From positions 1 to 51,441 of the IMG/VR virus record IMGVR_UViG_3300039448_000011: a stretch of DNA of 51,441 nt; one strand, 5' to 3'. Shown piece after piece: positions 61 to 50,251 of this stretch; the first letter of the stretch is position 1; every line of letters begins with the position of its first letter. A model generated the notes under the pieces. The model made no database searches. It was given only the letters and a program-made list of their open reading frames with translations, and was not told where the DNA came from. Source of the DNA: a virus (lineage: Duplodnaviria; Caudoviricetes). The translations under genes were made by a program, and so were the position numbers.

Positions 61-159
61 ATGACTGAAATAACTAAATCCCCTCTCTGCTGGCCTGCTA
101 TGTGGCCACGAACAGGGCAGTCAAAAAGCAAAGGCGGAAGCCTTGCCCAGCGGAGGTAA
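61..159 (+). pseudogene. Short ORF, possible N-terminal remnant of a phage J-domain-type protein
   Basis: ATG at 61 after AGGA gives MTEITKSPLCWPAMWPRT..., resembling the PLxWPxxWPRT start of that family; stops after 32 aa. Confidence 0.3.
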
Positions 160-163
160 TTTC

Positions 164-391: not shown

Positions 392-410
392 CTTACAGCG
401 CGTTATGCGC
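386..410 (-). repeat. Collapsed attC-like site (R boxes only)
   Basis: AAATAAC-9 nt-GTTATGCGC; GTTATGCGC (402-410) is complementary to GCGCACAAC (756-764) at 8/9 positions. Confidence 0.55.
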
Positions 411-421
411 GAGGTTTTTAA

Positions 422-775
422 ATGAAAGCGAGAATCGAAAAAAAGGTATGTAAACGACTTGTGCAAGTTTCACCAAAGTTATTCGAAGACGCGTGGAAAG
501 AAGCCTCTAGCGAGATAACCGAGTTGGCGCACAAGCAAGGTTCAAGAGTCAGCGGAATATACCTGATTGGAGGCGGGCTTGATTATTGGGGTGAAGGAAC
601 GGACGCAGAGACACCACTACAATTCATGCGCTCTCATTTTCACTGGATAGGAAAATTTCCAAATTACCCCGAAGGCCATAAGTTTTCTAATCATCCAGAT
701 ACTCAAGGGTTTAAGCCAACAACTCGAAATTTGATTAATCTTGCGCGGAAGTATTGCGCACAACCCAAGTTTTAA
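422..775 (+). CDS. Hypothetical protein, cassette-borne
   Basis: 117-aa ORF with GAGG RBS, bounded by complementary R boxes. Confidence 0.85.
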   Translation: MKARIEKKVCKRLVQVSPKLFEDAWKEASSEITELAHKQGSRVSGIYLIGGGLDYWGEGTDAETPLQFMRSHFHWIGKFPNYPEGHKFSNHPDTQGFKPTTRNLINLARKYCAQPKF

Positions 776-779
776 CCGG
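756..779 (-). repeat. Truncated attC-like half site
   Basis: GCGCACAACCCAAGTTTTAACCGG resembles the arms at 1049 (TAACCCCGGAATAACCGG) and 1360 (TAACCCCAAGTTTTGCGG); the partner arm is missing. Confidence 0.55.
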
Positions 780-793
780 AGAGGAATGTAGAG

Positions 794-1054
794 ATGAGCG
801 ATAGCGAAGAACGGAAAGACGAGTCCGAGTTGAGCGCCTTGTTAGCTGCGCATAAGCATAGAGAGATTAAAGTTTTTAAAGATGAACTGGCTGAAAAACT
901 TGATGAACTGGCTGATGTTTGCGAGCACTGGAAAAAGAACAGGGATAAAGGGCGAAACCCAAACGGCATAAGAGCAGCACTGCTTTATTTAGTTAGTGAA
1001 ATAGAAATAATGCGGAGCATGGAAGAGGCCATAAAAGTTTCTTGTGACAGCTAA
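794..1054 (+). CDS. Hypothetical protein, cassette-borne
   Basis: 86-aa ORF with GAGGA RBS; stop lies within the TAAC of the next attC-like site. Confidence 0.8.
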   Translation: MSDSEERKDESELSALLAAHKHREIKVFKDELAEKLDELADVCEHWKKNRDKGRNPNGIRAALLYLVSEIEIMRSMEEAIKVSCDS

Positions 1055-1111
1055 CCCCGGAATAACCGGACGAGCGCCAGCGAGTTCCGCTGGTTAATTC
1101 ATTTGTTATTT
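1049..1111 (-). repeat. attC-like recombination site
   Basis: Minus strand AAATAAC-AAATG-AATTAACC...GGTTATT-CCGGG-GTTAGCT fits R''-5-L''(8)...L'(7)-5-R'. Confidence 0.85.
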
Positions 1112-1125
1112 ACCATAGGTGAGCT

Positions 1126-1365
1126 ATGACGAAAGTTGCAGTTATTGGCGGTGGCCGATACTCCGAAGAGGTAGCGAAGATGCTAGCCGAGTTAGAAGGC
1201 ATTGAAGTGGTTGATGCTAAGAATGTTAGTAAGTCGGATGTACTGTCTATCTGCCCGACTGGGCATGAAGACTTCTCCAGCCTGAAGGTTCGAGCAGAGC
1301 CACTACTGGAGAACAACGAAACGTGGCGCGGTAGAGGAAAGCGCCGTAAGCCTATGTGTAAATAA
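1126..1365 (+). CDS. Hypothetical protein, cassette-borne (VAVIGGG N-terminus, basic C-terminus)
   Basis: 79-aa ORF with AGGTGA RBS; ends GTTATTTAC/GTAAATAAC are perfectly complementary. Confidence 0.8.
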   Translation: MTKVAVIGGGRYSEEVAKMLAELEGIEVVDAKNVSKSDVLSICPTGHEDFSSLKVRAEPLLENNETWRGRGKRRKPMCK

Positions 1366-1415
1366 CCCCAAGTTTTGCGGCAGCTTTAGCTGTCCGAAAG
1401 AATGGGTTGTTATAC
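1360..1415 (-). repeat. attC-like recombination site
   Basis: Minus strand GTATAAC-AACCC-ATTCTTTC-GGACAGCTAAAGCTGCC-GCAAAAC-TTGGG-GTTATTT; unpaired C in L'' and unpaired A in GGAC as in canonical attC. Confidence 0.85.
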
Positions 1416-1422
1416 GTGAATA

Positions 1423-1680
1423 ATGGAATTGATTATGACTAAGCACATATTTATTTTAGCTGGTTCTCATAAAGAAGCCGCACACTTAGCAAGAGAAAAA
1501 GGATTACACCCTAGCAACTGGACTTTTTTACACAAGCCAGAACAGTTACGCGGTTTGCGTGGCAACCCTTATATTCGGTACGGTACGTGGAGATATCAAA
1601 GGTTTATTAATGATATAGAGAGAATGCTAGTTGAACGTGAAATGCAAGAATGCACAGACGTAAGAATTAAAGACGTATAA
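1423..1680 (+). CDS. Hypothetical protein, cassette-borne (start may be 1435)
   Basis: 85-aa ORF; ends GTTATACGT/ACGTATAAC are perfectly complementary. Confidence 0.8.
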   Translation: MELIMTKHIFILAGSHKEAAHLAREKGLHPSNWTFLHKPEQLRGLRGNPYIRYGTWRYQRFINDIERMLVEREMQECTDVRIKDV

Positions 1681-1724
1681 CGCGCAGTACGTGTGCCGAA
1701 GGTCACACGTATGCTGTGTTATTG
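1675..1724 (-). repeat. attC-like site, terminal site of array 1
   Basis: Minus strand CAATAAC-ACAGC-ATACGTGTGACCTTCGGCACACGTAC-TGCGC-GTTATAC; both R boxes overlap stop codons of convergent genes. Confidence 0.75.
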
Positions 1725-2761: not shown

Positions 2762-2982
2762 CACTTTGGTCTGATGAATTCTGGGGGCTGCTCATGGGTA
2801 GCTATATATTGAGCATTATCATTGTTTTGTTTTCTGGCGGAGTACCCACAAAGTGGCAGACGTGGCCCATGGTTCACTTGGTTGCGCTCTCCTTTCCGAT
2901 ACTTGCAGTCGCCTCCTCCGTTCTGGTTGCCATCCCTGGCTTAATGGTTCTTGGGCTTATTGTGGCAGCCACCACTAGGTAG
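2758..2982 (+). CDS. Small membrane protein
   Basis: ATGA overlap with upstream gene; two long hydrophobic stretches. Confidence 0.6.
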   Translation: MTLWSDEFWGLLMGSYILSIIIVLFSGGVPTKWQTWPMVHLVALSFPILAVASSVLVAIPGLMVLGLIVAATTR

Positions 2983-12991: not shown

Positions 12992-13010
12992 TAATATTTC
13001 CAGTAACTAA

Positions 13011-35998: not shown

Positions 35999-36300
35999 TG
36001 ACTGCTAACGCTCACTGAATAATCAACGTTCGTCACCGTCGGAGTAACAACAACGTAATCAATTGCGCCCGCGTCCAGTTGAATCATCCCGTTTTCAGAG
36101 ACTATGTTTTCAGATTCGGCGCCAGGGTTAACTCTATTTGTTGAGCTATCAAAACCGTAGGGCACAACAGTAATCGTAATATCGCCAGTCGCGCCGGAGA
36201 AATACAATGTGTGCAGTGACGATCCGTTTGCAACCTGAATTAGTTGCTCACCCTGAAGCCCGTTTTTGATTTGTTTCTTTTGGATATCAGGCATTGTCAT
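35995..36300 (-). CDS. Hypothetical protein
   Basis: 101 aa, beta-rich, coupled to the downstream gene. Confidence 0.65.
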   Translation of the reverse strand: MTMPDIQKKQIKNGLQGEQLIQVANGSSLHTLYFSGATGDITITVVPYGFDSSTNRVNPGAESENIVSENGMIQLDAGAIDYVVVTPTVTNVDYSVSVSSQ

Positions 36301-36532
36301 TGCTCCCGCGAGACTGTCTGTCAGTCAACACTGCAATATCCTTGTCGTGTTGACTAATTATTGATGCGTGCTCATCAAGTCGTGTCTGATGTCGAATGTG
36401 CTGCTCGTCATGCGATGAGAGTTTTGATGAAACGATGCCGTAAATGCGTCCAAGTCCAATGAGCTGCATAGCAAATGTTGCGAACAACCCTCCAACCGCT
36501 ACCAGCGTATTTGTATCGACGTTTTCGAGCAT
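36287..36532 (-). CDS. Single-TM coiled-coil protein (holin/antiholin-like), first late gene
   Basis: One hydrophobic helix followed by heptad pattern; ATG at 36532 just after the terminator. Confidence 0.6.
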   Translation of the reverse strand: MLENVDTNTLVAVGGLFATFAMQLIGLGRIYGIVSSKLSSHDEQHIRHQTRLDEHASIISQHDKDIAVLTDRQSRGSNDNA

Positions 36533-36548
36533 GCTAAATCCCAGACGC

Positions 36549-36580
36549 AAAAAAGCCCGGATCAGATTTAACTGCCGGGC
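36549..36580 (-). terminator. tR'-like terminator
   Basis: Minus strand GCCCGGCAG-TTAAAT-CTGATCCGGGC-TTTTTT. Confidence 0.8.
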
Positions 36581-36850: not shown

Positions 36851-37258
36851 ATGACTACAATCACTATCAACGACCTACCAAAATCATGCGCCCTAACAAA
36901 AATTGAGCTTTGTGGCGATCATGAAACTATCATCGAATTAGTTCGCAGCGTCACCACATACCCAACAATCAAAAACAAATCTGGAAATCTTGAGCTAGAC
37001 GCTAGCAAAAAAGACATTGCAGGTGTTTACAACGCGGTATTTGCACACAATGATCGCGTCAAAAAATCAGAATCCAAGCCATCTACAACTCAAACCACCG
37101 AAAAACCAGCAGAGCGCTATGTTGAATTACTCGCTACCGCTGAATTTGAGAATTTAAACCACGGTCGCGCTTGGTATTGCTCTGAGCTAGACATTGAAAC
37201 CAAAGGCGCCTCTCCTGCATGGGAAGGCGAGCAAATCTGTTACGTTTATCCAAACTAA
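36851..37258 (+). CDS. Hypothetical protein, anti-defence candidate
   Basis: 135 aa; first gene of an operon opposing the late direction. Confidence 0.8.
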   Translation: MTTITINDLPKSCALTKIELCGDHETIIELVRSVTTYPTIKNKSGNLELDASKKDIAGVYNAVFAHNDRVKKSESKPSTTQTTEKPAERYVELLATAEFENLNHGRAWYCSELDIETKGASPAWEGEQICYVYPN

Positions 37259-37295
37259 TTAATAGGCGGGGTAACCCGCCAATCGGAGAATCAGA

Positions 37296-37514
37296 ATGAT
37301 TAAATATAGTGTTGTGAGCGAAAAACAGGATGTTGGCGGCGATATTATCGAAATATTTAGTGTTGTTGACGACGATGGAATGCCAATCAATGACGGGCAT
37401 TTTACCGTTGAGTCAGATGCAAACTACGTATCAGAGAAAATGAATACAGGTAAATTTGGCGGAGACGATGTGTCGAATTTATGCAAATTAATGGATAGCT
37501 GGATAATCTGCTAG
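37296..37514 (+). CDS. Small acidic protein, anti-CRISPR candidate
   Basis: 72 aa, D/E-rich, GGAG RBS; function inferred from context only. Confidence 0.75.
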   Translation: MIKYSVVSEKQDVGGDIIEIFSVVDDDGMPINDGHFTVESDANYVSEKMNTGKFGGDDVSNLCKLMDSWIIC

Positions 37515-37601
37515 AAAAAATCCCCACATAGTGGGGAACGGAACTACTTAGAAACAGACATTCTATGTCTATGTGGTTCATCCCCGCAAAACGGGGAACT
37601 G
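37514..37601 (-). CRISPR. Type I-E-like mini-array (repeat - 32-nt spacer - degenerate repeat/terminator)
   Basis: Minus strand CAGTTCCCCGTTTTGCGGGGATGAACCA + CATAGACATAGAATGTCTGTTTCTAAGTAGTT + CCGTTCCCCACTATGTGGGGATTTTTTC; 60-nt period. Confidence 0.75.
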
Positions 37602-37631
37602 CACCCTCACGGGCACGCTCATAGCAACATC

Positions 37632-37659
37632 AATTTACATGGTTTTTTTAATCTGTCAA
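37632..37659 (-). promoter_or_regulatory. sigma70 promoter facing the mini-array
   Basis: TTGACA (37659-37654)-16 nt-TAAATT (37637-37632). Confidence 0.7.
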
Positions 37660-38096
37660 TGGGTAATAAAATGAAAAAATCAACGTTAGATAAGTATTTG
37701 GCATTCGCCAGCCCTCTCACTGGCTATGGCCACGACTTCTACTTTAATGGTTATATCGCTGGCCTCAATGCCTACTATGCGCGCCTAAAGCAGCTAAAAA
37801 CGCTGGATAAACACGAAGCCGAGCTTGAGCGTGCTCGCATGGTTTATCCGACCGTTGAGTCGGCAGACGGTATCTCAGACGGGCTCGATGGCCGCCCACC
37901 TTCGGGTTACGTCCAAGAGCAAAGCCACTTAGCCGGGAATGATCATGCTGTTAAAGATGCCGAACCACGCGATAATCGTGTGATCATTCGCTGCAGTACG
38001 ACAAATAAAACGCGCTGGGATGCCCACAAAAAACCATCAGAATCCCGCGCTGATTTTATCACCCGTGTGCTGAATGCCTACTGCGACAATCAATAA
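37659..38096 (+). CDS. Protein with C-terminal ribbon-helix-helix domain (Aca-like regulator candidate; start may be 37671)
   Basis: GNDHAVKD...RVIIRCSTTNKTRW...SRADFITRVLN fits the RHH pattern. Confidence 0.65.
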   Translation: MGNKMKKSTLDKYLAFASPLTGYGHDFYFNGYIAGLNAYYARLKQLKTLDKHEAELERARMVYPTVESADGISDGLDGRPPSGYVQEQSHLAGNDHAVKDAEPRDNRVIIRCSTTNKTRWDAHKKPSESRADFITRVLNAYCDNQ

Positions 38097-38112
38097 GCAC
38101 CAATAACAAGCA

Positions 38113-38137
38113 AGGGCTGAGAGTTCTACTCAGCCCT
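38113..38137. terminator. Hairpin between convergent genes
   Basis: AGGGCTGAG-7 nt-CTCAGCCCT. Confidence 0.6.
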
Positions 38138-38156
38138 ACCCTAACCTTTATGTCAT

Positions 38157-38762
38157 TCAGAACGGAATATCATCGTCAAAGTCATCAAAGTTATTGCTTG
38201 GCTGCTGCATTGGCGACGGCTGCTGCACAGGCTGCTGGTAATTCCCTTGTTGAGGTGCTGACTGCTGAGCTGCACGCTGAGGGCTTTGCATTGATTGTGG
38301 TGCTTGCTGTTGAGGCTGCTGGTAACTTTGCTGCTGTTGAGGTGCCTGCCTAGGTTGTGGGGCTTGTTGTGGGGCTTGTTGCTGATAACCACCCTGCTGT
38401 CCGTCACCCTGCTGTCCACCGCTCTGCGGTCTACTATCCAGCATCATCATGTCGTTACAGACAATTTCAGTCGTGTAACGCTTAATCCCGTCTTTTTCCC
38501 ATTCGCGAGTGCGGAGCTTGCCTTCAAAGTAGGCACGCGAACCTTTCTTCAGGTACTGCTGACAGATTTCTGCAAGCTTGCCGTATACCGTAATGCGGTG
38601 CCATTCAGTCTGCTCGACTTTTTGACCGGTCGCCTTATCGTTATAGCTTTCATCTGTTGCGAGAGAGATATTTGCAACCGCATTGCCATTCGGCATATAA
38701 CGGACTTCTGGATCGCGACCCAGAGTACCGATTAATGTGACTTTGTTTACTGATCTGCTCAT
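38157..38762 (-). CDS. ssb: Single-stranded DNA-binding protein
   Basis: [21 protein letters not shown]-rich linker, DFDDDIPF tail. Confidence 0.97.
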
Positions 38763-38837
38763 TTTTACTCACCTTTCGTATTTATCCTAGCCCTGCCAGG
38801 ACGGTTATCGTCATGTATAGATTATTCGATTTTCTAT

Positions 38838-38889
38838 ACATAACACTTCAGAGCGCGGGACGTTCCGCCCGCGTCCATTCTTGTTATTC
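38838..38889 (+). repeat. attC-like site, terminal site of array 2
   Basis: ACATAAC-ACTTC-AGAGCGCGGGACGTTCCGCCCGCGTCC-ATTCTT-GTTATTC. Confidence 0.7.
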
Positions 38890-39039
38890 GTGTTCGGTGA
38901 TTTCCGAACACTTAAACGTTTTTTTGCCAACATAGAACGACCCTTGACGCTCGCACTCTGTAGCTATTGTCGAATGTGCCCACTCCCAGCCTATCCATAC
39001 GCCGAAAACCAGCATTAACAATGCGAAGAACATTTTCAT
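38884..39039 (-). CDS. Small membrane-anchored protein, cassette-borne
   Basis: GAGGTG RBS before ATG at 39039; MKMFFALLML...ECERQGSFYVG; ends GTTATTCG/CGAATAAC are complementary. Confidence 0.75.
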   Translation of the reverse strand: MKMFFALLMLVFGVWIGWEWAHSTIATECERQGSFYVGKKTFKCSEITEHE

Positions 39040-39048
39040 CACCTCTCC

Positions 39049-39112
39049 GAATAACAAACATTTGAATCGTGGACTGTCGCTACGCTCCAGCCCATTAAAA
39101 TCTGGGTTATAA
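39049..39112 (+). repeat. attC-like recombination site
   Basis: GAATAAC-AAACA-TTTGAATC-GTGGACTGTCGCTACGCTCCAGCCC-ATTAAAA-TCTGG-GTTATAA. Confidence 0.85.
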
Positions 39113-39115
39113 CTC

Positions 39116-39364
39116 TTAATGGCATTCACATAAGCCGCCATTGTAATCATAAGCACCTTCATACTGCTCACCGTTATAGTGCTCTCCAGCCTCGCCATAC
39201 CAATCTTCGCCGTTACCGCAGCAATCACACACTTGAACATCGTGCTCAGGTGTTGCCGCAATCCATTTAAGAATATCGTCTTGACTCATTGGCTCTTCGG
39301 TTTCCGGTAATTGCTCGTAATTTAAGAATCCAGTCCCAGAACATCTAGTACATATTATCGCCAT
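39116..39364 (-). CDS. Cys-rich zinc-finger-like protein, cassette-borne
   Basis: GGAGG RBS; CxxCxGxG and CDCCGNG motifs; bounded by GTTATAAC at both ends. Confidence 0.8.
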   Translation of the reverse strand: MAIICTRCSGTGFLNYEQLPETEEPMSQDDILKWIAATPEHDVQVCDCCGNGEDWYGEAGEHYNGEQYEGAYDYNGGLCECH

Positions 39365-39384
39365 ACTTGCCTCCAATTAATCCG

Positions 39385-39432
39385 TTATAACAAAGTATTG
39401 CAGCGGACAAACCGCTGACTACGGGGTTATGC
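39385..39432 (+). repeat. Short attC-like recombination site
   Basis: TTATAAC-AAAGT-ATTGCAGC-GGACAAACC-GCTGACT-ACGGG-GTTATGC. Confidence 0.85.
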
Positions 39433-39600
39433 GCTTGGTAAACCTTCAAAATCGTCAATATTACCATTAAAAACTGTAGTCGAACCCTTGTAACCAGCTA
39501 GCTTTTGCAATTTTGCGTATGCTTCTAGCCACGGTTCGTGATTATAAAAACCCCAGCCATTTTCTGTTCTATGACCTTGTGAGTGTAATCCCCAATCCAC
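39427..39600 (-). pseudogene. Probable 5'-truncated cassette gene overlapping the end of the Q-like gene
   Basis: Open frame ...ENGWGFYNHEPWLEAYAKLQKLAGYKG...EGLPSA* stops in the attC R box like the other cassette genes. Confidence 0.45.
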
Positions 39601-40268
39601 TTATCCAACGGACGTAGCGACTGGTCATCAATTTTGCTGATTTCCGACATAATGATTTGCCAAATATATTTCCACTGGCGCGACCAATTTCTAGTATCAA
39701 TATTCCGGTCGCGGGAGGCCATTAATCGACCAACTTCATTCACTTGGCTCGACGATAGATCCATAGTCTTAGGCGTTTGACCTTCAATCGCTGGTGATAT
39801 TGACTCTCTGTAGTGGCATAGAGCGCAGTAGATTAAGTCCATCATCGCTGCACGCCTCTCTGGCGGCGTGCTTGGGTGTTGCTGTTGCAGATTTTTCATA
39901 CAGATTCGATACAGATGGTTTTGTATCTGCATGACATCAGCATGACTCGCCTCACCCTCTGGCTTGTAGAGTAAATTTCCCAGCGCACGGCAAAACACGG
40001 GCAACCTGTTAATCTCTGAGCGCAGGTGCATTTTTTGTTGATCACACCATATTTGGGCTACGTTTGAACTGAAGCCCCCGAAGTCGGCATTCGCGACCTT
40101 GGTCTTTTTCCAATCTCCAGACATTGCGCTGGACGCATTCGATTTTATACCGAGCTTTGCCGTTTCAATACATGAAGACAAGGCCGAGTCGGCACCGTAG
40201 AAATATATCCAGTGCCACAGGTTTCGGGCTATTAGTGGGTACGGAAGGCTTCGAGTAGTATTAGTCAA
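39525..40268 (-). CDS. Late-gene antiterminator (Q-like), by position
   Basis: 247 aa directly after ninG and upstream of a pR'/tR'-like unit; NWSRQW motif; no firm sequence family. Confidence 0.55.
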   Translation of the reverse strand: MTNTTRSLPYPLIARNLWHWIYFYGADSALSSCIETAKLGIKSNASSAMSGDWKKTKVANADFGGFSSNVAQIWCDQQKMHLRSEINRLPVFCRALGNLLYKPEGEASHADVMQIQNHLYRICMKNLQQQHPSTPPERRAAMMDLIYCALCHYRESISPAIEGQTPKTMDLSSSQVNEVGRLMASRDRNIDTRNWSRQWKYIWQIIMSEISKIDDQSLRPLDKWIGDYTHKVIEQKMAGVFIITNRG

Positions 40269-40959
40269 GGTGCAGCTCCTCTTTCAGTTTTTTCCAGCGA
40301 GCGTCACACCAGCGGCGCACGATTTTTAATTGCTTCGCGTCCCGCGTGAAATTCGGTTGCTTCCGTTCGAGATAGCTCATACGTTTTTCGTATTCTTCTA
40401 TGCCTCGGCGTCTTTTAAGGCCCTCTAAATATCCACGACTGTTTTTATTGCCGGTAATATTGCCGGAAAGGCCTTTGTTGCAGTAACGATTGCACTGCAG
40501 CTCAGTGTTGAGCGTGTTAAATCTCAATTCCTCATGAGCACCTACGGTCTTCAAGTGACCGCAGGCAAATTCACCAAGAGCATAATGGTCCGCGATTTTT
40601 GAGCAGCTAATGCACGATGGTGCTTTGCAATCATCTAAAAGCTCTTTGTACCGCTCTAACTTGATCATCCGGTTGAATGAAATCTGAGTGAGCTTCAACT
40701 GCTTTGAGACATCATTGTCGTAGTAATCTCGTTTTTTACGACCAGCCTCCTTTTTCTTTTCAGCCGCCTTCTTTTTCGTGACTCGCTGAACGTAGCAATC
40801 CAAGCCTTGGCGTAACTTTTCACGCTCTTTCTTAAGGGCTTCCAGTCCAAATTCTTCCATACAGCTAAAGGAATAGAATTTCTTTTTGTGATAGATGGTT
40901 GTGCTTGCCGCAGCCGTAGGGATGGCTCTGTCGCAACCGCATTTGCAACGTCGGGTCAT
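40261..40959 (-). CDS. ninG: NinG/Rap family endonuclease
   Basis: CISC...CGH.KTVGAH.ELRF...N...QCN..CN. Confidence 0.85.
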   Translation of the reverse strand: MTRRCKCGCDRAIPTAAASTTIYHKKKFYSFSCMEEFGLEALKKEREKLRQGLDCYVQRVTKKKAAEKKKEAGRKKRDYYDNDVSKQLKLTQISFNRMIKLERYKELLDDCKAPSCISCSKIADHYALGEFACGHLKTVGAHEELRFNTLNTELQCNRYCNKGLSGNITGNKNSRGYLEGLKRRRGIEEYEKRMSYLERKQPNFTRDAKQLKIVRRWCDARWKKLKEELHLD

Positions 40960-41390
40960 AGCTCACCGCCCTTAAGACTCTTTATGAGCTCATCATATGA
41001 AAACGCCGAAGGCTTTAGATCTTGGCGAAAATTCAAGCCCGATGGGATTTTGTTGATTTCTATCGGTGGCATTTTGGCGGCGGCGAGCTTATCAATTTCA
41101 TCTCGGGAGTAGTCAATGCCAAGGAGAATATCTGCCTGCCCCTCCAGTCGCTGCATTTCAGCAAGCAGAGCATCCAAATCAAAAAGAGCCGACCTTTCGC
41201 AATTCGGACGCTCCCTAAAAGCTGCCTCAAACGCCTCTATTCTTGCCTCCGTTTTCCGCAAATCTTCAGCCGCTTTAATCAGCGGGCTTTGCTTAACTGT
41301 TAATTTTGAAATCACCAACCAAAAAAAATAAAGAACCGATAAAGCAAGGAGAAAAATCGCCCAAAAGTTAGTTATTAATTCCCAAATCAT
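40956..41390 (-). CDS. Membrane-anchored hypothetical protein
   Basis: N-terminal TM helix plus coiled coil; ATGA overlaps. Confidence 0.7.
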   Translation of the reverse strand: MIWELITNFWAIFLLALSVLYFFWLVISKLTVKQSPLIKAAEDLRKTEARIEAFEAAFRERPNCERSALFDLDALLAEMQRLEGQADILLGIDYSRDEIDKLAAAKMPPIEINKIPSGLNFRQDLKPSAFSYDELIKSLKGGEL

Positions 41391-41884
41391 TCAGTCGCCC
41401 CCTTCTTCTGCATTAACTGCGCTAAATACTCACGTTCAGCCGCTACTTCCCGCTCCCGCTCTAATGGCCACTTAACACCCATTTCAACGCCCTGCGCGTA
41501 GATGAATTCGATAAATTGCGAATATTCCTTCCTGTTAAAGTCCTCCGTACTAGCCCTAAGGCTAACCATCCTTTCACCATCTATGGATGATGTGACCCGG
41601 CTAGGATGTTCCAGCCAATCACCCATACCTATCAGGTCTTTCTCAAACTGATCAACAAGCTTCGCCTTCCATATCTGCAACTCAAATTTTTTACCATATA
41701 CAGAAACCTGCTTAGAGATTTCTCCAATTAAGCTATGTGCTTTTTCGCGTTGCGCTCTCGTTCGGCTTGGACGACGAATCAAAACCGACACACCACCACT
41801 CAGGAGCATCTCAATAACAAATGCTTTAATCGCTGCCATTGCAGCTCTAGCGTTAGACTGATCAAAATTAAATTCTCTAGCCAC
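41387..41884 (-). CDS. ninB: NinB/Orf family protein
   Basis: RTRAQREKAHSLIGEISKQV...WK...ST...EYSQFIEFIYA.G...GVKW; GTG at 41884 preceded by AGGA. Confidence 0.8.
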   Translation of the reverse strand: MAREFNFDQSNARAAMAAIKAFVIEMLLSGGVSVLIRRPSRTRAQREKAHSLIGEISKQVSVYGKKFELQIWKAKLVDQFEKDLIGMGDWLEHPSRVTSSIDGERMVSLRASTEDFNRKEYSQFIEFIYAQGVEMGVKWPLEREREVAAEREYLAQLMQKKGATE

Positions 41885-42113
41885 GTCTTTGATTCCTATA
41901 TTCAGAAGCAACGGCATGAAGATACTCATTCGCAATTCTTCGGCCTGTGCGGTTTTTAGCTGAAAACTTCTTTTCGTATTCCAGAGCAACTTACTGTTGC
42001 TTACTTTTTGGAATTACTGCCATTCGAGCGGCAATCCAAGATCGGTCAGATTCGTTCTTGCCCCGATAGTGATAAAAGCGAGGCATGATCAAGCTGTTGG
42101 TATCGACGCTCAC
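41877..42113 (-). pseudogene. Small phage gene interrupted by one in-frame TAA
   Basis: MSVDTNSLIMPRFYHY...KSKQQ*VALEYEKKF...GRRIANEYL...RRG*; stop at 41993-41991; both ends overlap the neighbouring genes. Confidence 0.6.
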
Positions 42114-42897: not shown

Positions 42898-43064
42898 GCG
42901 TCCCAATCACTCACTTTCTGCAACTTCTCGTCGCGATATTCTTCCGGCTCGCTCGCACTATCACGACGAACCCACGTCAGGTGTTGGCTAGACTTGGTAA
43001 TGACGAACGCTTGCGCCCCATCGGGAAGCTTCACGCCATCCCCTGCTTGAAAATCAGTTCTCAT
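42894..43064 (-). CDS. Hypothetical protein
   Basis: MRTDFQAGDGVKL...; ATGA overlap with the P-like gene, GGAG RBS. Confidence 0.6.
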   Translation of the reverse strand: MRTDFQAGDGVKLPDGAQAFVITKSSQHLTWVRRDSASEPEEYRDEKLQKVSDWDA

Positions 43065-43732
43065 AAAGACTCCATTAGGCTGCGTATATTTCTCTGAGCG
43101 CGGTTTGGCTCCGTAGGCTTGTGCATCAAGCATTCAGAATCGCGCAACGGTTTAAACTCATTCCACGGTCGCCCAGACTTCCAGTGCTCAATTGTTTTAA
43201 GCCGTGCAGAAATAATCATTTCCGTAACGTACTGAGTGTTTTTTCTGCGAGCCTCACCTTGATCCATGATCGACCAAATGTGATACCCAGCGCCGGTTAG
43301 GCGCGTTCGGGGAATTCGGATTTTCGTTAGAATTAAATCAATCGCATTTTTTTCGTTTGGAATACCAGCGCTTATCGCGGCTTCATCCCAGCACCATTGG
43401 CAAAACTGTCCGGCGGCAGGTGGACGCACCCAGCCAGTGGCTCTCGCAGCTTTTAATCCGTGCTCAATGAGCGGGTGTGAATTAACACCAAACTCGATCA
43501 TGGTTTGCAGCCAGACATTGCGAATGCCATTAATTTCGTCCGCTGAGCGGTATAGTTCCCGCCACTTCGGAAAAATCAGGGTTATCTGAGTAATCAACCA
43601 GTTCACCAGTTTCGCGTCCTCCTGCGTCGGCTGAATCGCTGAAGGGGTTTTTACCGAAGTCCTTGAGCCAGTCTGTGGATTCGAGCGCTTCGCGCTGGTC
43701 AGGGCCTGAATTGAATTGCTGACTTGATCCAT
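43061..43732 (-). CDS. Replication protein P-like helicase loader
   Basis: W...M.E.GV.....I..GL..AR......P.AGQF..WC (lambda P family pattern); GAGG RBS. Confidence 0.8.
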   Translation of the reverse strand: MDQVSNSIQALTSAKRSNPQTGSRTSVKTPSAIQPTQEDAKLVNWLITQITLIFPKWRELYRSADEINGIRNVWLQTMIEFGVNSHPLIEHGLKAARATGWVRPPAAGQFCQWCWDEAAISAGIPNEKNAIDLILTKIRIPRTRLTGAGYHIWSIMDQGEARRKNTQYVTEMIISARLKTIEHWKSGRPWNEFKPLRDSECLMHKPTEPNRAQRNIRSLMESL

Positions 43733-44495
43733 TGCCGTTACCTCGTTGATTTTTAATATTCTGGTGCTGCACCCAAGCGCGCTGAGTCGATTTAAAAAAT
43801 GAAGTTTCGTAATTCCCGCCAAATGGTTTTTTATTCGCGGTTAGCCAAAATCCAACAAACTCAGGAATGCAATCACGAATAAATTCCTCAGGGATGTTCA
43901 GCATTAAAATTCTTTGGATCGTTGTTTGTTCGGGTTGCCAGCGCTCGGTCAGCTCCTCAGGAGAAGTAAATTCCTGAAGAGGTTCAGATTCAAAAACTTT
44001 TGCCTGTTGTTGTAGTTGTTTATTCCCTTCCCCTTCCCTTTCCCTTTCCCCTTCCCCTTGATAAAGATCGTTACGCGTGGGCGACGCGTCATTCACGCGT
44101 GAAGTATTGGTTAAATTATTAGTATTCATGGGGTCTTCAGCGTGCTGCGCTTCAACTTGGTCGGCAGAAGGAATGACCGATGCCTTTTCTCTGTTATTGA
44201 CAACTTGGTGACGTGAGAAAGACGGAATGCACCCATAGCCTTTGCCCTGAACCGTGTACTGAAAAACAAAACCACGCGTGGCTAACGCGTCAAGCACGCG
44301 TGAAAAGTCAATTTCATCGTATGGCATTACATCTAATTTTAATTGTCTAGGTCGCCACTCAAATCGACCCTCTCTGTCACAACAGGTAAACAAACCTATA
44401 AATGCAAGACGCAGCGGAAGCTCGGTTTCTTTTTCCGCTTCGAATAAATCTTCATGTCGAAACAATTCAGGCTTCACCGTTCTGATTCTGGCCAT
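43530..44495 (-). CDS. Replication initiator (O-like) with DnaT-like C-terminal domain
   Basis: MARIRTVKPE N-terminus; WQP...EFVGFW motif; internal iterons. Confidence 0.85.
   Translation of the reverse strand: MARIRTVKPELFRHEDLFEAEKETELPLRLAFIGLFTCCDREGRFEWRPRQLKLDVMPYDEIDFSRVLDALATRGFVFQYTVQGKGYGCIPSFSRHQVVNNREKASVIPSADQVEAQHAEDPMNTNNLTNTSRVNDASPTRNDLYQGEGEREREGEGNKQLQQQAKVFESEPLQEFTSPEELTERWQPEQTTIQRILMLNIPEEFIRDCIPEFVGFWLTANKKPFGGNYETSFFKSTQRAWVQHQNIKNQRGNGNGSSQQFNSGPDQREALESTDWLKDFGKNPFSDSADAGGRETGELVDYSDNPDFSEVAGTIPLSGRN
44073..44301. repeat. Putative origin iterons: two clusters of 3x ACGCGT at 11-nt period
   Basis: ACGCGT at 44073, 44084, 44095 and 44274, 44285, 44296; AT-rich tract at 44104-44129. 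Confidence 0.75.
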
Positions 44496-44598: not shown

Positions 44599-44675
<77 letters not shown>

Positions 44676-45800: not shown

Positions 45801-45871
45801 TGACAGTATTTCGTCAATTCTATACACAGCACTCTGTCAATGTCCAACATTACAATGATAAATAATTGTCA
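45801..45871. promoter_or_regulatory. OR-like operators (TGAC-N8-GTCA family)
   Basis: TGACAGTATTTCGTCA (45801), ACACAGCACTCTGTCA (45824), TGATAAATAATTGTCA (45856). Confidence 0.75.
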
Positions 45872-45883
45872 TTAGGAGATTTT

Positions 45884-46522
45884 ATGTCGTTCAATGATCG
45901 TGTTAAGCAGAGACGAAAGGCGCTGAAGCTCACACAGCAAGCGGTTGCTGATAAAGTTGGCATTTCACGCAGCGCGGTCAATAGTTGGGAAATGGGTGAT
46001 CATATTCCGGGGGGCAAAGCTGCCATGGCCCTTCCGAAGGTTTTGCAATGCTCCTGGGAGTGGCTAGAGACCGGCAGGGGAAGTCCAGAGGTTATGATTG
46101 CCAAGCTGGAAACGAATGAGCATAAAGTGAAGCTGGTACCACTCCTTGCCAAATCAGAAGTAATCTCTTACCTGGAGGGCACAAAAAACCCTGATCAATT
46201 CCTATCAGAGTCGCTATCTCTCTTGCCAGCAATGTTGAATGGATCAGATCAGTGTTTTGCTATACGGGAGGATTCGCCGGGAATGACCCCTAGAATAATT
46301 CCTGGCGAATTAGTGATAATCGACCCAGAACACGGAGGCGTTCCGGAATCCGGCGGCGAGTGGGCGTTTAATATTGATGGGCAGTTAACTATAGGTGTTG
46401 CAAGATGGACGCCCCGAGGGCTGATGCTGTCATTTTACAATAGAGAGCCGGGGTGGGAGCCGGTGAATATTGGTAGTGATTTGGCGCTAGGAAAGATTTT
46501 GGCATCTATCCCAGCGCCATGA
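45884..46522 (+). CDS. cI: CI-like repressor (HTH plus degenerate S24 domain)
   Basis: RVKQRRKALKLTQQAVADKVGISRSAVNSWE HTH; AGGAG RBS; S24-like C-terminus lacking catalytic residues. Confidence 0.9.
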   Translation: MSFNDRVKQRRKALKLTQQAVADKVGISRSAVNSWEMGDHIPGGKAAMALPKVLQCSWEWLETGRGSPEVMIAKLETNEHKVKLVPLLAKSEVISYLEGTKNPDQFLSESLSLLPAMLNGSDQCFAIREDSPGMTPRIIPGELVIIDPEHGGVPESGGEWAFNIDGQLTIGVARWTPRGLMLSFYNREPGWEPVNIGSDLALGKILASIPAP

Positions 46523-47478: not shown

Positions 47479-47664
47479 ATGAAATCTTTAAAAATAATTC
47501 AGGGCAGAAAGCCAGCGGGCCGGTTTCACAGAGCGCCGATATGGGTGGCACGACTGATACACGAAGACGGAACAAAAGAAGAGCTATCGAGCAGAACCCC
47601 AATTGGGTTGAACGCCCTTTTGCAACGTCGAATAGATCAAATTAATTCAGGAGAAGTGGCATGA
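47479..47664 (+). CDS. Hypothetical protein (alternative frame 47451-47645 also possible)
   Basis: GAGG RBS before ATG at 47479; ends GEVA* with ATGA overlap onto bet. Confidence 0.5.
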   Translation: MKSLKIIQGRKPAGRFHRAPIWVARLIHEDGTKEELSSRTPIGLNALLQRRIDQINSGEVA

Positions 47665-48578
47665 ATCAGGCTGTTAGATTGCACGAAGAAGCAAAAAGTA
47701 AATCCATTCAGGGCTGGTACGAACAATACCCGGATTTGGCCATACGTGGAATTGATGAGCAAATTTGGAACGCCTTGTCTGCAACGCTTTACCCGGGCGC
47801 TCAGATGCAAAGCATTCTGATGGCTTGGGATTACTGCGCAGCCAGAAAGTTAGACATTATGCTGAAGCCTGTTCATTTAGTGCCAATGAGCATTAAAACC
47901 GGAATGAAGGATAACGCTGGAAAAGATATTTATGAAAGTCGTGATGTTCCAATGCCGGGAATTGGGCTGTATCGAATTCAGGCAAGTCGCACAGGCGACT
48001 ACGCCGGGTCGAGCGAGCCGGAGTTTGGCCCTGCCGTTACTCACGAGTTCGCGCACGAATACAAAGGCAACGCCACAAAAAAGAAGGTCACGTTTCCGGA
48101 GTGGTGCAAGTACACCGTTCAAAAGTTAATTGGTGACCGAATTGTTAGCTTCTCTGTTAAAGAGTTTTGGCTAGAAAACTACGCAACGCAAAGTCGATAT
48201 TCAGACCTGCCAAACGCGATGTGGGAAAAGCGCCCCTATGCTCAGCTAGCTAAGTGCGCAGAAGCCCAAGCATTGCGTCGCGGCTGGCCAGAAATAGGCC
48301 AAGACCCTACGGCAGAGGAAATGGAAGGCAAGGCTTTTGATATGGCTAAAGATGTTAGTTATGCAAATGGCGGGCATGACATTGGCCTTGTCGAATCATC
48401 CCGCCCAACCCTTGAGTTATATGCGGACGAAAAATTCAACAAAAAATTCTCAAACTGGCAGGCGCAAATCTCAAGCGGCGAGCGCACTGCGCAGGATGTG
48501 ATTGCAACAATTTCAAGTCGCTTCGAAATGACCAGCGAACAAATTAATAAAATTGAAAGCGTGGAGATAGCCCAATGA
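47661..48578 (+). CDS. bet: Bet/RecT family single-strand annealing recombinase
   Basis: YC...LD...KPVHLVPM, GIGLYRIQA.RTG.YAG, MW.KRP..QLAKCAEAQALR. Confidence 0.92.
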   Translation: MNQAVRLHEEAKSKSIQGWYEQYPDLAIRGIDEQIWNALSATLYPGAQMQSILMAWDYCAARKLDIMLKPVHLVPMSIKTGMKDNAGKDIYESRDVPMPGIGLYRIQASRTGDYAGSSEPEFGPAVTHEFAHEYKGNATKKKVTFPEWCKYTVQKLIGDRIVSFSVKEFWLENYATQSRYSDLPNAMWEKRPYAQLAKCAEAQALRRGWPEIGQDPTAEEMEGKAFDMAKDVSYANGGHDIGLVESSRPTLELYADEKFNKKFSNWQAQISSGERTAQDVIATISSRFEMTSEQINKIESVEIAQ

Positions 48579-50251
48579 AAAAACTAAATTTAGTTCAAGG
48601 TAGAGAGCAGTGGAAAGCGGTTCGTAATAAATTTTATCGCACCGCCTCCAGCGCCAGCATGATGATGTCATCGCATAGCAATGTAACGCGCGACGAACTT
48701 CTTCACATGAAAGCTACTGGCACCGAGCAAGAGTTCTCTGATTTTGTTCATAAATACGTTCTTGATAAAGGCCACGAAGTAGAAGCAAATGCGCGTCCAT
48801 TCATGGAGCAGAAAATCGCGGATTGGTTTTTTGATGGTGACACCGATGACGCAATGCTTTATCAGGTTACCGCTACTGATGATGAAGAATACCTACTAGG
48901 CAGCACTGACGGCCTCACCGATTGCGGTACGGTTGGCTGGGAGTGTAAGCAGTGGAATGAATCAAAGGCTGCGGACGTTGAGGCTGGCATACTCCCTGAG
49001 TGCGATAAGTGGCAAGTTATTCAGTCGCTTGTTATTACTCGCGCAAAATATTGGGTCTACACGGTTACCGATGGCACACCAGAGAAAGAAGTTAGCATGG
49101 TGGTTTCTCTGACGGACGCCGACGAAAAGGCACTGATGGCCGGTTGGAAGCAATTCGACGAAGACCTTGCAAACTACGAAGTCAAGGAAGCCAAGCCGGT
49201 CGCGATTGCCGAAGCTATCCCATCACTTCCAGCGCTTAATATTGAATTGTTTGGCGAGGTAAAGGGCAGCAACCTTCCCTCTTTCGCAACCAGCGCCAAG
49301 CAAGTTATCGAAAGCATTAAGACTGACTTGGTTACAGATCAAGACTTTGCTGACTCGGAAGCCATTGTTAAGTTCCTAAAGTCAGGCGAACAGCAATTAG
49401 CTGAAGCTAAAAAGACTGCACTTTCTAAAACGGAAAGTATTGAGGCCCTATTTCGCGCCGTGGATGACTTAAGTGAAACCATGCGCCAGAAGCGCCTCAC
49501 TCTTGAAAAGCTGGTCAAGGCTGAAAAAGAAAATAAGCGTAACGCAATTTTTTCTGCCGCCAAGCAAGAGCTAACCGACCACATCCAGAAAGTAAACGCT
49601 TCGTTCTCAATTCGAGTCGCTCTGCCAGATATTACTACCGATTTTACCGGTGCAATGAAGGGTAAGAAATTACTTTCGAACATGCAGTCGGCGGTTAACG
49701 ACGTGCTGGCCAAGGCAAAAATCGAAGCAAATCAGTGGGCTGAAAAAATTACCGCGAATATCAACGCTTACGCAGAGGCCGTGAAAGAAGAGTATCGCGC
49801 CCTCCTCTTCCCTGACCTGCCAACTTTGATCCTTAAAGATCAAGACGACTTCATTGCATACGTTAATAACCGCATTGCTATGCACGAGCAGCAAATTCGC
49901 GAACGCGAAGAGCTGGCCCGCAAGCAAGCCGAAGAATCTGCTCGCTTAAAGGCTGAGGCTGACGAAGCTACACGATTAGAAGCCGAAGCCCGCCGCATTG
50001 CTCAAGATGCGCAAGATGCGCAGCGTATGGCCGAAGCTGAAGCTCTGGCCAAGAACTACGCTCCAGCCCTCGCAGACATTCCACTCACCACGGGCGCTGC
50101 AATGAAAGCCGCTGCGCAAAGTAACGATCAAGTGACGCTGTTCGATGCTCTGACTCAGTTCTGCAATGAGCGCGGACTTAACGAATCAACCTGCAATGAC
50201 TTAATTTCGCTTGTTGGTAGTTACACAAGCCTAAATCAGAAAGCTGCATAA
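48575..50251 (+). CDS. YqaJ/lambda-exonuclease family protein with long coiled-coil C-terminus
   Basis: QG..W...R...TAS, GH.VE..AR, STDG...WECK motifs; follows bet. Confidence 0.88.

What the first reader, a model, noticed from the sequence alone, without database searches (positions are those of the whole stretch)
38838..39432. Second attC cassette array, between the Q-like gene and ssb
Seen: three attC-like sites (38838-38889, 39049-39112, 39385-39432) enclose a 51-aa membrane ORF and an 82-aa Cys-rich ORF. Unit ends match (GTTATTCG/CGAATAAC; GTTATAAC/GTTATAAC). The sites differ in sequence from each other and from array 1, so they are not a simple duplication. Inference: independent capture in both early operons points to a recurring mechanism.
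Basis: partly seen in the sequence, partly recalled or inferred. Interest (0 to 1): 0.8.

Follow-up and report, generated by a model that had tools for sequence, protein, structure and literature searches.

The report
Integron-type cassette array inside a phage
Three short DNA hairpins between two small genes of a marine temperate phage are integron-type recombination sites, showing that this phage stores and swaps small accessory genes as mobile cassettes.

Summary
Three imperfect hairpins (38838-38889, 39049-39112, 39385-39432) bounded by ATAAC...TGTTAT enclose a 51-aa and an 82-aa ORF.

The attC reading is supported.
- A covariance model built only from 29 attC sites lying beside integron integrase genes in the likely host family gives, as its four best hits in the whole window, sites C and B and two sites of array 1.
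- Site C matches a bacterial attC at 35 of 44 positions.
- The segment made of site B plus the 51-aa ORF (228 bp) recurs at 98.7% identity in an unrelated provirus. Homology ends exactly in the ATAAC feet, where integron integrases cut (AA|C).
- Relatives carry different genes in the same interval.
- No integrase of this type lies in the phage, so this is a cluster of attC sites lacking an integrase (CALIN), presumably served by the host's IntI.

- The attC top strand is the non-coding strand. The unit is therefore attC followed by the downstream ORF, inverted relative to bacterial cassettes.
- Site A is not recognised by the model.
- "Q-like" has no support.

Phage CALINs are already published. 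The inverted polarity, the arrays in both early operons and the sharing between lambdoid and Mu-like phages are new.

The parts
38838..38889 (+). Site A. A hairpin with symmetric feet (ATAACA...TGTTAT on both strands) at the ssb-proximal edge of the array. It is the resident site into which the 51-aa cassette is joined.
   Evidence: Sequence. DNA fold z -3.05 and -4.16. Homologues in G005 (87.5% identity, exact ends) and in the MAG prophage contig. The right boundary of the cassette shared with L049 falls in its ATAAC. Model R2 aligns only the feet (9.4 bits, E 7.2, on the minus strand). Pairwise score not above shuffles.
39049..39112 (+). Site B, an attC whose top strand is the + strand.
   Evidence: Second-best R2 hit in the window (14.5 bits, E 0.6). 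Best pairwise score to bacterial attCs 15, against a maximum of 12 in 200 interior shuffles. Related sites at G001 6087 and 8607-8666. Travels with the 51-aa ORF in L049.
39385..39432 (+). Site C, an attC whose top strand is the + strand.
   Evidence: Best R2 hit in the window (29.4 bits, E 4e-4). Best R1 hit (20.4 bits). 35 of 44 positions identical, without gaps, to L047:1232-1275, the first attC beside an intact intI. 88.9% identical to G001 8861-8905.
38884..39106 (-). Cassette 1 (223 bp): body of site B, ribosome-binding site, 51-aa membrane ORF (38884-39039), ending ATAA.
   Evidence: Window 39110-38883 equals L049 1430-1657 at 98.7% over 228 bp. Homology stops in the ATAAC at both ends and the flanks are unrelated. 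ORF; phrog_4568.
39107..39426 (-). Cassette 2 (320 bp): body of site C, ribosome-binding site, 82-aa Cys-rich ORF (39116-39364), ending ATAA.
   Evidence: Boundaries inferred from the same AA|C rule. Contig pieces in runs X3 and X4 begin to match at 39105. The ORF has no Pfam, PHROG or NCBIfam family. No relative in viral contigs.
38103..38151 (-). Degenerate fourth site just after the ssb stop codon (ATAAA...TTGTTAT with an inner 9-bp stem).
   Evidence: Sequence. The inner stem was flagged as terminator-like. R2 does not find it at E<=10.
38157..38762 (-). ssb, the backbone gene downstream of the array.
   Evidence: phrog_44 at E 6e-53. TIGR00621 at 179.9 bits, cut-off 53.95.
39525..40268 (-).
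   Evidence: phrog_3373, unknown function. No Pfam, NCBIfam or PDB match. 58% identical homologues in L002 and L003.
39427..39600 (-). 57-aa ORF (GTG start, overlapping the 247-aa gene) whose TAA stop lies in the ATAAC of site C. Whether it is a real gene is uncertain.
   Evidence: No family. No homologue in any fetched locus.
1049..1722 (-). Array 1, the sister array in the other early operon. Sites at 1062-1109, 1362-1413 and 1677-1722; genes on the + strand, attC top strand on the minus strand.
   Evidence: R2 hits at 1360-1415 (13.8 bits) and 1049-1111 (13.4 bits), both on the minus strand. The 1677 site is not found by R2.

Best explanation
The three hairpins are integron-type attC recombination sites. 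They form a cluster of attC sites without an integron integrase (a CALIN) in the right early operon of a temperate, lambda-organised marine phage.

Each mobile unit consists of an attC followed, in the direction of transcription, by a ribosome-binding site and one small ORF that ends in ATAA. The phage coding strand is the attC bottom strand, which is the strand that folds and is cut between A and C of the 5' AAC. The cassettes are therefore inverted relative to bacterial integron cassettes.

Shown here: homology of the sites to attCs lying beside intI in the likely host family; cassette boundaries in the AAC/GTT feet; different cassette content in relatives; and the same cassette in another provirus.

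Inferred: the host's chromosomal integron integrase, acting in trans on folded single strands, excises cassettes as circles and inserts them at resident attC sites in co-infecting or resident phages. This shuffles accessory early genes.
For: (1) Model test with independent training data. Integron integrase (TIGR02249, over the cut-off) is present in 52 of 81 sampled genomes of the family of the MAG that carries a related prophage. The arrays next to six intact intI genes hold sites reading TAACAA...[G/C]GTTA on the top strand, 42-100 nt long, after co-directional ORFs. R1, built from 7 such sites, found 29 sites in the bacterial loci, 29 of 29 on the top strand. R2, built from those 29 with no phage sequence, was run over the whole window with filters off. 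Its four best hits are site C (29.4 bits, E 4e-4), site B (14.5), 1360-1415 (13.8) and 1049-1111 (13.4), each on the non-coding strand. In nine related loci, 31 of 32 hits at E<=5 are on the non-coding strand.

(2) Site C is 35 of 44 identical to L047:1232-1275. Its score is 26, against a maximum of 14 in 200 interior shuffles. Site B scores 15, against a maximum of 12.

(3) Junctions.
- Window 39110-38883 recurs in provirus record G089 at 98.7% over 228 bp, ending in ATAAC on both sides, with unrelated flanks and a different attC downstream.
- There are two one-ORF insertion polymorphisms bounded by ATAAC on both sides: L003 against L002, and G006 against G004.
- A 1.45-kb duplicated unit of attC, xis and int in G001 starts 1 nt before ATAAC.
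- The cut site AA|C on the bottom strand is as described by Nivina et al. 2016 (PMC5027507, passages read).

(4) Relatives L002 and L003 hold entirely different ORFs in the same interval. The ORF at 1423-1680 of array 1 has homologues (46-51% aa identity, E 6e-10) in that interval of L002 and L003.

(5) Metagenome contigs from four runs stop matching at 38840, 38888, 39048/39049, 39105 and 39111, which are the site feet.

(6) Orientation, by mechanical ORF maps. Bacterial sites: 17 co-oriented only, 0 inverted only, 8 both, 4 none (n = 29). Phage sites: 0 co-oriented only, 15 inverted only, 12 both, 1 none (n = 28).
Against: - Site A and the 1677-1722 site are not recognised by R2 beyond their feet. 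Sites B, 1360 and 1049 have E-values of 0.6-1 taken singly.
- The feet read GTTAT, which breaks the canonical GTTRRRY at one position. However, 10 of 18 host-family attCs do the same.
- I did not establish extrahelical bases at canonical positions.
- The bottom strand is only weakly more stable in the phage sites: 13 against 10 with 2 ties, mean -0.43 kcal/mol, p 0.13. In the bacterial sites it is 20 against 6 with 3 ties, mean -1.94, p 5e-4.
- Site B folds no better than shuffles.
- No integron integrase lies in the window or in 5 related phage records. The host is inferred from one MAG.
- None of 27 phage cassette proteins has a relative in 19 bacterial integron loci.
- Most gene differences in the L002 and L003 interval are not bounded by attC sites.
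- Some hairpins are shared with both flanks unrelated, for example a 55-nt site that is 100% identical in G001 and three Mu-like records. One bottom-strand exchange does not explain this.
Confidence: 0.8

Rival explanations
1. The hairpins act as RNA: intercistronic stem-loops that terminate, process or stabilise the early transcript. Their resemblance to attC is then incidental or secondary.
For: Each site starts at or within 35 nt of an upstream stop codon; 11 of 19 sites have the TAA inside ATAAC. The consensus scan flags the inner stems of site C (minus strand) and site A (plus strand) as terminator-like. The coding-strand RNA fold is the more stable one in 13 of 19 sites. Qi et al. 2023 cite attC sites as weak terminators.
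Against: There is no U-tract after sites B and C. The flagged site A stem is on the strand opposite to transcription. The invariant feet with unrelated interiors, the homology to bacterial attCs and the homology breakpoints inside the 5-nt foot are not explained by an RNA role. Rfam finds nothing here. A secondary RNA effect is not excluded.
Confidence: 0.05
2. The hairpins are short conserved linker sequences at which the phages' own RecT/RecE-type recombination exchanges modules. No site-specific enzyme is involved.
For: The phage encodes RecT-like and RecE-like proteins (47661-50251). Identical or similar hairpins occur in unrelated contexts, and the homology is confined to the hairpin.
Against: At the right end of the cassette shared with L049, the two contexts share only ATAAC, followed by different hairpin bodies. 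The same holds for the L003 and G006 insertions. Five bases are too few for annealing-based exchange (established knowledge, not tested here). It also does not explain why the feet match bacterial attCs.
Confidence: 0.07
3. A different single-strand recombinase or nuclease (for example an HUH-type enzyme), and not IntI, recognises these hairpins and cuts at the foot.
For: No enzyme has been shown. The cassette polarity is opposite to that of integrons. Class I hairpins are nearly perfect stems.
Against: The sites are homologous to sites that lie directly beside intI genes. The cut position matches IntI. No candidate enzyme gene is shared by the lambdoid and Mu-like carriers in the annotations I made; I ran no dedicated search.
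Confidence: 0.06
4. These are chance inverted repeats in AT-rich intergenic DNA.
For: The backwards-pattern control gives 6 matches against 9 in the window. Site B folds no better than shuffles.
Against: 0 of 100 shuffles reach 9 matches. The T before GTTAT is invariant. The four best R2 hits fall on these sites. The sites are conserved in other phages.
Confidence: 0.01

Closest known systems
CALINs (clusters of attC sites lacking an integron integrase) in phage genomes: Qi et al. 2023, Front Microbiol, PMC9892861 (outline, section 3.4 and passages read; supplements not seen)
   Same: Two or more attC sites with small ORFs of unknown function inside a phage genome and no intI. Those authors found 17 CALINs, 3 complete integrons and 1 In0 in 10,705 phage genomes, and IntI1 recombined 5 of the 6 phage attCs they tested.
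   Different: Here there are arrays in both early operons of one temperate phage. The ORFs lie on the attC bottom strand, whereas Qi et al. describe TJE1 and PH101 cassettes as arranged like bacterial arrays. Cassettes and sites are shared between lambdoid and Mu-like phages and a provirus. In a relative, an xis-int module sits between two attC sites. Nothing here has been tested at the bench.
Sedentary chromosomal integrons of marine Gammaproteobacteria (here: arrays beside intI in genomes of the family of the Oceanospirillaceae MAG)
   Same: The feet (TAAC...GTTA, often GTTAT), the length range, the R stem / internal loop / inner stem plan, stop codons inside the foot, and cassettes made mostly of ORFs without known relatives. 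Site C has a direct homologue there.
   Different: No integrase, attI or Pc promoter. Cassette ORFs are inverted relative to attC. Expression presumably comes from the phage early promoters. No ORFs are shared with the 19 bacterial loci sampled.
PeSL (promoter-early stem-loop) mobile regulatory cassettes of T4-type phages
   Same: Small accessory ORFs in plastic early regions are bracketed by repeated stem-loop elements that are proposed to drive shuffling.
   Different: As I recall them, PeSLs carry an early promoter and work by homologous exchange. Here the elements are homologous to attC, and the junctions lie inside a 5-nt foot. I did not test this comparison.

Membership tests
integron attC site | Conserved 5'-AAC...GTT-3' triplets at the two feet, pairing to form the R box | tested here: met
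   All three sites read ATAAC...GTTAT. The feet pair in the folds of A and C and in the minimum-energy fold of B.
integron attC site | Extended consensus R'' RYYYAAC and R' GTTRRRY (Nivina 2016, passage) | tested here: inconclusive
   GTTAT has T at the second R position, so the canonical consensus is broken at one position. However, 10 of 18 attCs beside intI in the host family also read GTTAT.
integron attC site | Match to an attC covariance model | tested here: met
   Model R2 was built from 29 bacterial attCs of the likely host family. Site C: 29.4 bits, E 4e-4. Site B: 14.5 bits, E 0.6, rank 2 in the window. Site A: feet only, E 7.2. The IntegronFinder model itself was not available.
integron attC site | Imperfect hairpin with an unpaired central spacer, an L box carrying extrahelical bases, and a variable terminal structure | tested here: inconclusive
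   The folds show a foot stem, an internal loop, and an inner stem with unpaired bases. I did not establish the number and position of extrahelical bases. Site A is an almost perfect stem.
integron attC site | Bottom strand folds better and carries more G:T pairs than the top strand | tested here: inconclusive
   Phage sites: bottom strand more stable in 13, top in 10, 2 ties; mean -0.43 kcal/mol, p 0.13; G:T pairs 0.80 against 0.36. Bacterial sites: 20, 6 and 3; mean -1.94, p 5e-4; G:T pairs 1.45 against 0.38.
integron gene cassette | Cassette boundaries at the crossover point, AA|C of the bottom strand (G|TT of the top strand) | tested here: met
   Homology with L049 ends in ATAAC at both ends of cassette 1. 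Two insertion polymorphisms and one duplication start at ATAAC. Resolution is 5 nt.
integron gene cassette | ORF co-oriented with the attC top strand, with attC at its 3' end | tested here: not met
   Phage sites: 0 co-oriented only and 15 inverted only, of 28. Bacterial sites: 17 co-oriented only and 0 inverted only, of 29. R2 hits fall on the non-coding strand.
CALIN | At least two attC sites close together with no integron integrase nearby | tested here: met
   Three sites within 600 bp. There is no TIGR02249 match in the complete (99%) phage record.
complete integron | intI, attI and Pc adjacent to the array | tested here: not met
   No intI in the window or in 5 related phage records. I did not search for attI or Pc.
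integron attC site | Recombined by an integron integrase as folded single-stranded DNA | not testable with these tools
   This needs a recombination assay.
intrinsic terminator | GC-rich stem followed by a U-tract on the transcribed strand | tested here: inconclusive
   The scan flags the inner stem of site C on the minus strand and that of site A on the plus strand (the wrong strand), and nothing for site B.

The most novel reading that the evidence does not exclude
A guild of marine temperate phages (lambda-like and Mu-like) keeps its accessory early genes, including even xis-int modules, as a phage-specific pool of integron cassettes of inverted polarity, shuffled by the host's chromosomal integron integrase. 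Because the ORFs lie on the attC bottom strand, early transcription would expose the recombinogenic strand as the non-template strand. Phage cassettes would also be silent if captured by a bacterial integron, and bacterial cassettes would be silent in the phage. Integron recombination would then be a main generator of phage mosaicism in these hosts.
Probability: 0.35. Interest if true: 0.85.

Novelty: new variant of a known kind. Interest (0 to 1): 0.72.

Why it matters
Integrons are viewed as bacterial gene-capture devices, and attC clusters in phages have so far been rare curiosities (21 of 10,705 genomes in Qi et al. 2023). Here the sites bracket ordinary phage accessory genes in both early operons. 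They have demonstrable cassette boundaries, and the same cassette occurs in an unrelated provirus. This makes a concrete hypothesis testable: that a host recombinase drives modular exchange between phages. The inverted polarity is not described for any integron. If it holds up, it bears on how strand choice, transcription and cassette expression are linked.

Tried and rejected
- Megablast of 38100-40300 against GenBank phages found nothing. The distant mode matched only ssb.
- A 16-base stretch upstream of ssb, used as a probe, returned G001 plus two contigs with no other similarity, which I take as chance.
- Rfam at gathering thresholds found only a tRNA at 44602-44675.
- The first small model, R1, gave site C only 20.4 bits (E 0.09), so I rebuilt it as R2.
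- A hairpin filter was too strict and returned almost nothing. I reran it.
- The 82-aa ORF has no relative in viral contigs. It has no Pfam, NCBIfam or PHROG family. The ESM Atlas gave no hit of 0.9 or more.
- The 247-aa protein has no PDB relative.
- Phage cassette proteins against the bacterial arrays gave no hits.
- Reads. Run X3 shows no contig over 38908-38991 and little over 39160-39411. It has one contig joining 38887 to 39425, which skips 537 bp. The shorter side of that joint is only 28 letters, and the joint is 6 nt off a precise attC x attC product, so I do not count it as evidence of excision.
- The Pyrinomonadaceae MAG hit of the class I pattern was not followed up and is probably chance.
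- Earlier findings of the scan: none for this genome.
- I considered REP/RAYT elements, IS200/IS605 ends, dif/XerCD sites and RNase III sites from memory. I dropped them once the homology to attC was found, and tested none of them.
Full report
WHAT THE WINDOW IS. The window is a whole IMG/VR virus record: 51,441 bp, 99% complete by CheckV, with linear ends. PHROG scans show a temperate phage organised like lambda.
- A CI-type repressor lies at 45866-46522 (+).
- The right operon runs on the minus strand: replication initiator 43530-44495, P-like loader 43061-43822, NinB-like 41387-41989, NinG-like 40261-40959, an unknown 247-aa gene 39525-40268, small ORFs, then ssb at 38157-38762.
- Late genes follow on the minus strand down to a 3338-aa protein at 2975-12991.
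- RecT-like and RecE-like genes lie on the plus strand at 47661-50251.

The finding sits between the 247-aa gene and ssb. The label "Q-like" has no support. The protein matches only phrog_3373 (unknown function) and nothing in Pfam, NCBIfam or the PDB.

THE OBSERVATION. All three sites, the quoted end motifs and both ORFs are present as described. ATAAC-N20-50-GTTAT occurs 9 times in the window, against 1.18 expected from shuffles (0 of 100 shuffles reach 9). Six of the nine are intergenic hairpins: the three of this finding and three at 1062-1722 (array 1). The other three lie inside long ORFs. The backwards-pattern control is weaker for the window (6 against 9) but clear in a relative (2 against 13).

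As single-stranded DNA, site A folds better than shuffles, site C modestly better, and site B not at all. On the coding (minus) strand each site begins at or just after the stop codon of the ORF upstream. Over 19 sites in three records, the TAA lies inside ATAAC in 11. In an alignment of 22 sites the interiors are unrelated, but ATAAC and TGTTAT are invariant. The T before GTTAT was not imposed by the search. The base after ATAAC is C in 14 sites, G in 6 and A in 2, so the two feet are asymmetric.

RELATIVES. Only two viral contigs encode a relative of the 247-aa protein, at 58% identity.
- Between that gene and ssb, the window has ORFs of 57, 82 and 51 aa.
- L002 (record G001, 55 kb) has ORFs of 126, 86, 81, 86 and 185 aa.
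- L003 has ORFs of 83, 86, 90, 90 and 140 aa.
- Nucleotide similarity is confined to the flanking genes.

G001 carries 13 pattern matches, 11 of them in an array at 6087-13125 in its left operon. That array includes two xis-int modules, each preceded by an identical hairpin. Further carriers were found with a hairpin-derived pattern. They include a 38.7-kb phage with terminal repeats (G005) and three Mu-like records in which gemA-like and mor-like genes follow the site.

WHERE EXCHANGE HAPPENS. All-against-all blastn of the array regions shows many matches confined to a hairpin, starting 0-2 nt from ATAAC. Four observations define the mobile unit.
1. L003 has a 295-bp one-ORF insertion relative to L002, with ATAAC at both junctions. 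R2 later found a 98-nt attC at the start of that insertion.
2. G006 has a 274-bp one-ORF insertion relative to G004. It is bounded in the same way and begins with a collapsed hairpin.
3. The 1.45-kb duplicated xis-int unit of G001 begins 1 nt before ATAAC.
4. For this finding itself, window 39110-38883 (body of site B, ribosome-binding site, 51-aa ORF) recurs at 98.7% identity over 228 bp in provirus record G089. The match starts at the ATAAC of site B and ends at the ATAAC of site A. The flanks are unrelated and a different hairpin lies downstream.

So the unit is hairpin plus downstream ORF(s), and the exchange point lies inside the 5' ATAAC of the coding strand.

ARE THEY attC SITES? The class I hairpin pattern hits a prophage in a MAG whose record title says Oceanospirillaceae. 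The same MAG holds an internally deleted intI followed by a few cassettes. In 81 sampled genomes of that family, 52 have an integron integrase above the TIGR02249 cut-off.

I fetched 20 kb on the array side of six intact intI genes. Their attC sites read TAACAA...[G/C]GTTA[T/G/A] on the top strand, are 42-100 nt long, and follow co-directional ORFs whose stop codon often lies in TAAC. GTTAT, which departs from the textbook GTTRRRY, is found in 10 of 18 of them.

A covariance model built from 7 of these sites found 29 sites in the bacterial loci, all 29 on the top strand. A second model, R2, was built from those 29 and contains no phage sequence. Run over the whole window on both strands with filters off, R2 gave these results.
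- Site C: 29.4 bits, E 4e-4.
- Site B: 14.5 bits, E 0.6.
- 1360-1415: 13.8 bits.
- 1049-1111: 13.4 bits.
- Site A is aligned only at its feet (E 7.2, on the other strand). The 1677 site is not reported.

Pairwise comparison agrees. Site C is 35 of 44 identical, without gaps, to the first attC beside an intact intI (L047). Its score is 26, against a maximum of 14 in 200 interior shuffles. Site B also exceeds all shuffles, and site A does not. In nine related loci R2 gives 32 hits at E<=5.

POLARITY. The R2 hits are on the plus strand for this array, whose genes are on the minus strand. They are on the minus strand for array 1, whose genes are on the plus strand. In the related loci, 31 of 32 hits are on the strand opposite to the genes. 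The exception is the homologue of the symmetric site A. I checked gene strand by ORF maps for L002, L003, L007, L020, L021 and L030 and by a homologue for L019, and I assumed it for L022 and L023.

A mechanical ORF test compared the bacterial and phage sites.
- Bacterial sites (29): 17 co-oriented only, 0 inverted only, 8 both, 4 none.
- Phage sites (28): 0 co-oriented only, 15 inverted only, 12 both, 1 none.
- The 28 phage sites are the 4 window hits plus 24 of the 32 hits. I left out five truncated hits of 19-20 nt, and also L020 8586, L019 4971 and L019 1672.

Nivina et al. 2016 state that IntI cuts the folded bottom strand between A and C of the 5' AAC (PMC5027507, passages). The junctions above lie in the 5' ATAAC of the coding strand. 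Independently of the model, the coding strand is therefore the bottom strand.

The stability asymmetry expected of bottom strands is clear in the bacterial sites (mean -1.94 kcal/mol, p 5e-4). In 25 phage sites that I picked by hand it has the same sign but is not significant (mean -0.43, p 0.13).

MECHANISM. Shown: homology to attC, foot-level junctions, variable content, and recurrence of a cassette elsewhere.

Inferred: the host's IntI, absent from the window and from 5 related phage records, acts in trans on folded bottom strands. It would excise [attC + ORF] circles by attC x attC recombination and insert them at resident attC sites.
- Cassette 1 is 38884-39106 (223 bp).
- Cassette 2 is 39107-39426 (320 bp).
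- The body of site A stays with the ssb side.
- A degenerate site (ATAAA...TTGTTAT, 38103-38151) follows ssb, so ssb may once have been bracketed too.

Expression must come from the phage early promoter, because transcription runs antisense to the usual integron direction.

FIELD DATA. Contigs from four metagenome runs (one may be the source of the window) stop matching the window at 38840, 38873, 38888, 39048/39049, 39097, 39105 and 39111. Most of these positions are site feet. A site B-like hairpin also occurs on a 954-nt contig in a different context. I give no weight to parts without cover. The single 537-bp joint in X3 has a 28-letter side and is 6 nt off a precise product, so I do not count it either.

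AGAINST, AND OPEN.
- Site A and the 1677 site fail the model.
- Three of the four top hits have E near 1 taken singly.
- Extrahelical bases were not mapped.
- No enzyme is shown, and host assignment rests on one MAG.
- No phage cassette ORF is found in the sampled bacterial arrays (0 of 27 proteins against 19 loci).
- Most differences in the L002 and L003 interval are not bounded by attC sites.
- Hairpins shared with both flanks unrelated need more than one bottom-strand exchange. An example is a 55-nt site that is 100% identical in G001 and three Mu-like records. They may instead reflect the uniformity of attC sites that I recall from chromosomal integrons such as the Vibrio repeats; I did not check this here.
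- Nivina et al. write that promoter-facing cassettes have never been seen in integrons, so the polarity found here is unusual and needs a bench test.

COMPARISON AND NOVELTY. Clusters of attC sites in phages are published. Qi et al. 2023 found 17 CALINs, 3 integrons and 1 In0 in 10,705 phage genomes, and IntI1 recombined 5 of the 6 tested phage attCs (PMC9892861; outline, section 3.4 and passages read, supplements not seen).

Two full-text searches returned no other paper on phage-borne attC arrays, and no paper in their listings that described inverted polarity. I read none of those listed papers apart from Qi et al. and Nivina et al. I therefore file this as a new variant of a known kind.

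The cargo is unknown. The 51-aa ORF is a small membrane protein of a PHROG without function. The 82-aa ORF is Cys-rich and has no family.

Noticed in passing
window 1-1722: Array 1 has three more attC-type hairpins (1062-1109, 1362-1413, 1677-1722) after small + strand ORFs. The last lies between convergent genes, and both stop codons fall inside its feet. The ORF at 1423-1680 is homologous to genes in the right-operon interval of L002 and L003 (46-51% aa identity).
   Followed up: partly
window 388-406: A 19-nt mini-site, ATAAC-N9-GTTAT, lies right at the stop of ORF 143-391. It may be a collapsed attC remnant, like the one seen in G006, or it may be chance.
   Followed up: no
window 36851-38096: Three ORFs on the opposite (+) strand lie between ssb and the lysis-side genes. 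They have no counterpart in L002 or L003, where ssb is followed directly by the homologue of 36287-36550. The island begins next to the degenerate site after ssb.
   Followed up: partly
window (whole) and L007 (G001 7272-8609 and 10123-11460): I found no integrase in the window phage. The relative G001 has two xis-int modules that are 91.7% identical, each starting with the same attC-type hairpin. Integration modules themselves therefore look cassette-borne.
   Followed up: partly
window 44602-44675 (-): A tRNA gene (Rfam RF00005, 73.4 bits) lies in the early right operon, just upstream of the replication initiator gene.
   Followed up: no
window 2975-12991 (-): A single 3338-aa ORF with a central DNA-methyltransferase-like region (phrog_15406, E 1e-177) and large parts that match PHROGs of unknown function.
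   Followed up: no
L020 6412-6465, L021 6366-6419, L023 204-257, L007 8573-8626: One 55-nt hairpin is 100% identical in a lambda-like phage and three Mu-like records, just upstream of gemA-like and mor-like genes, with unrelated flanks on both sides in the lambda-like phage.
   Followed up: partly
L029 4941-5486 (G008 contig C31): The Oceanospirillaceae MAG that carries the related prophage has an integron integrase gene with an internal deletion; the model matches positions 1-131 and 273-314 only. A short cassette array ending at priA follows it.
   Followed up: partly
window 41812-41858 (+): A weak R2 hit (10.6 bits, E 3.9, feet only) lies inside the NinB-like gene. It is probably chance.
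   Followed up: no
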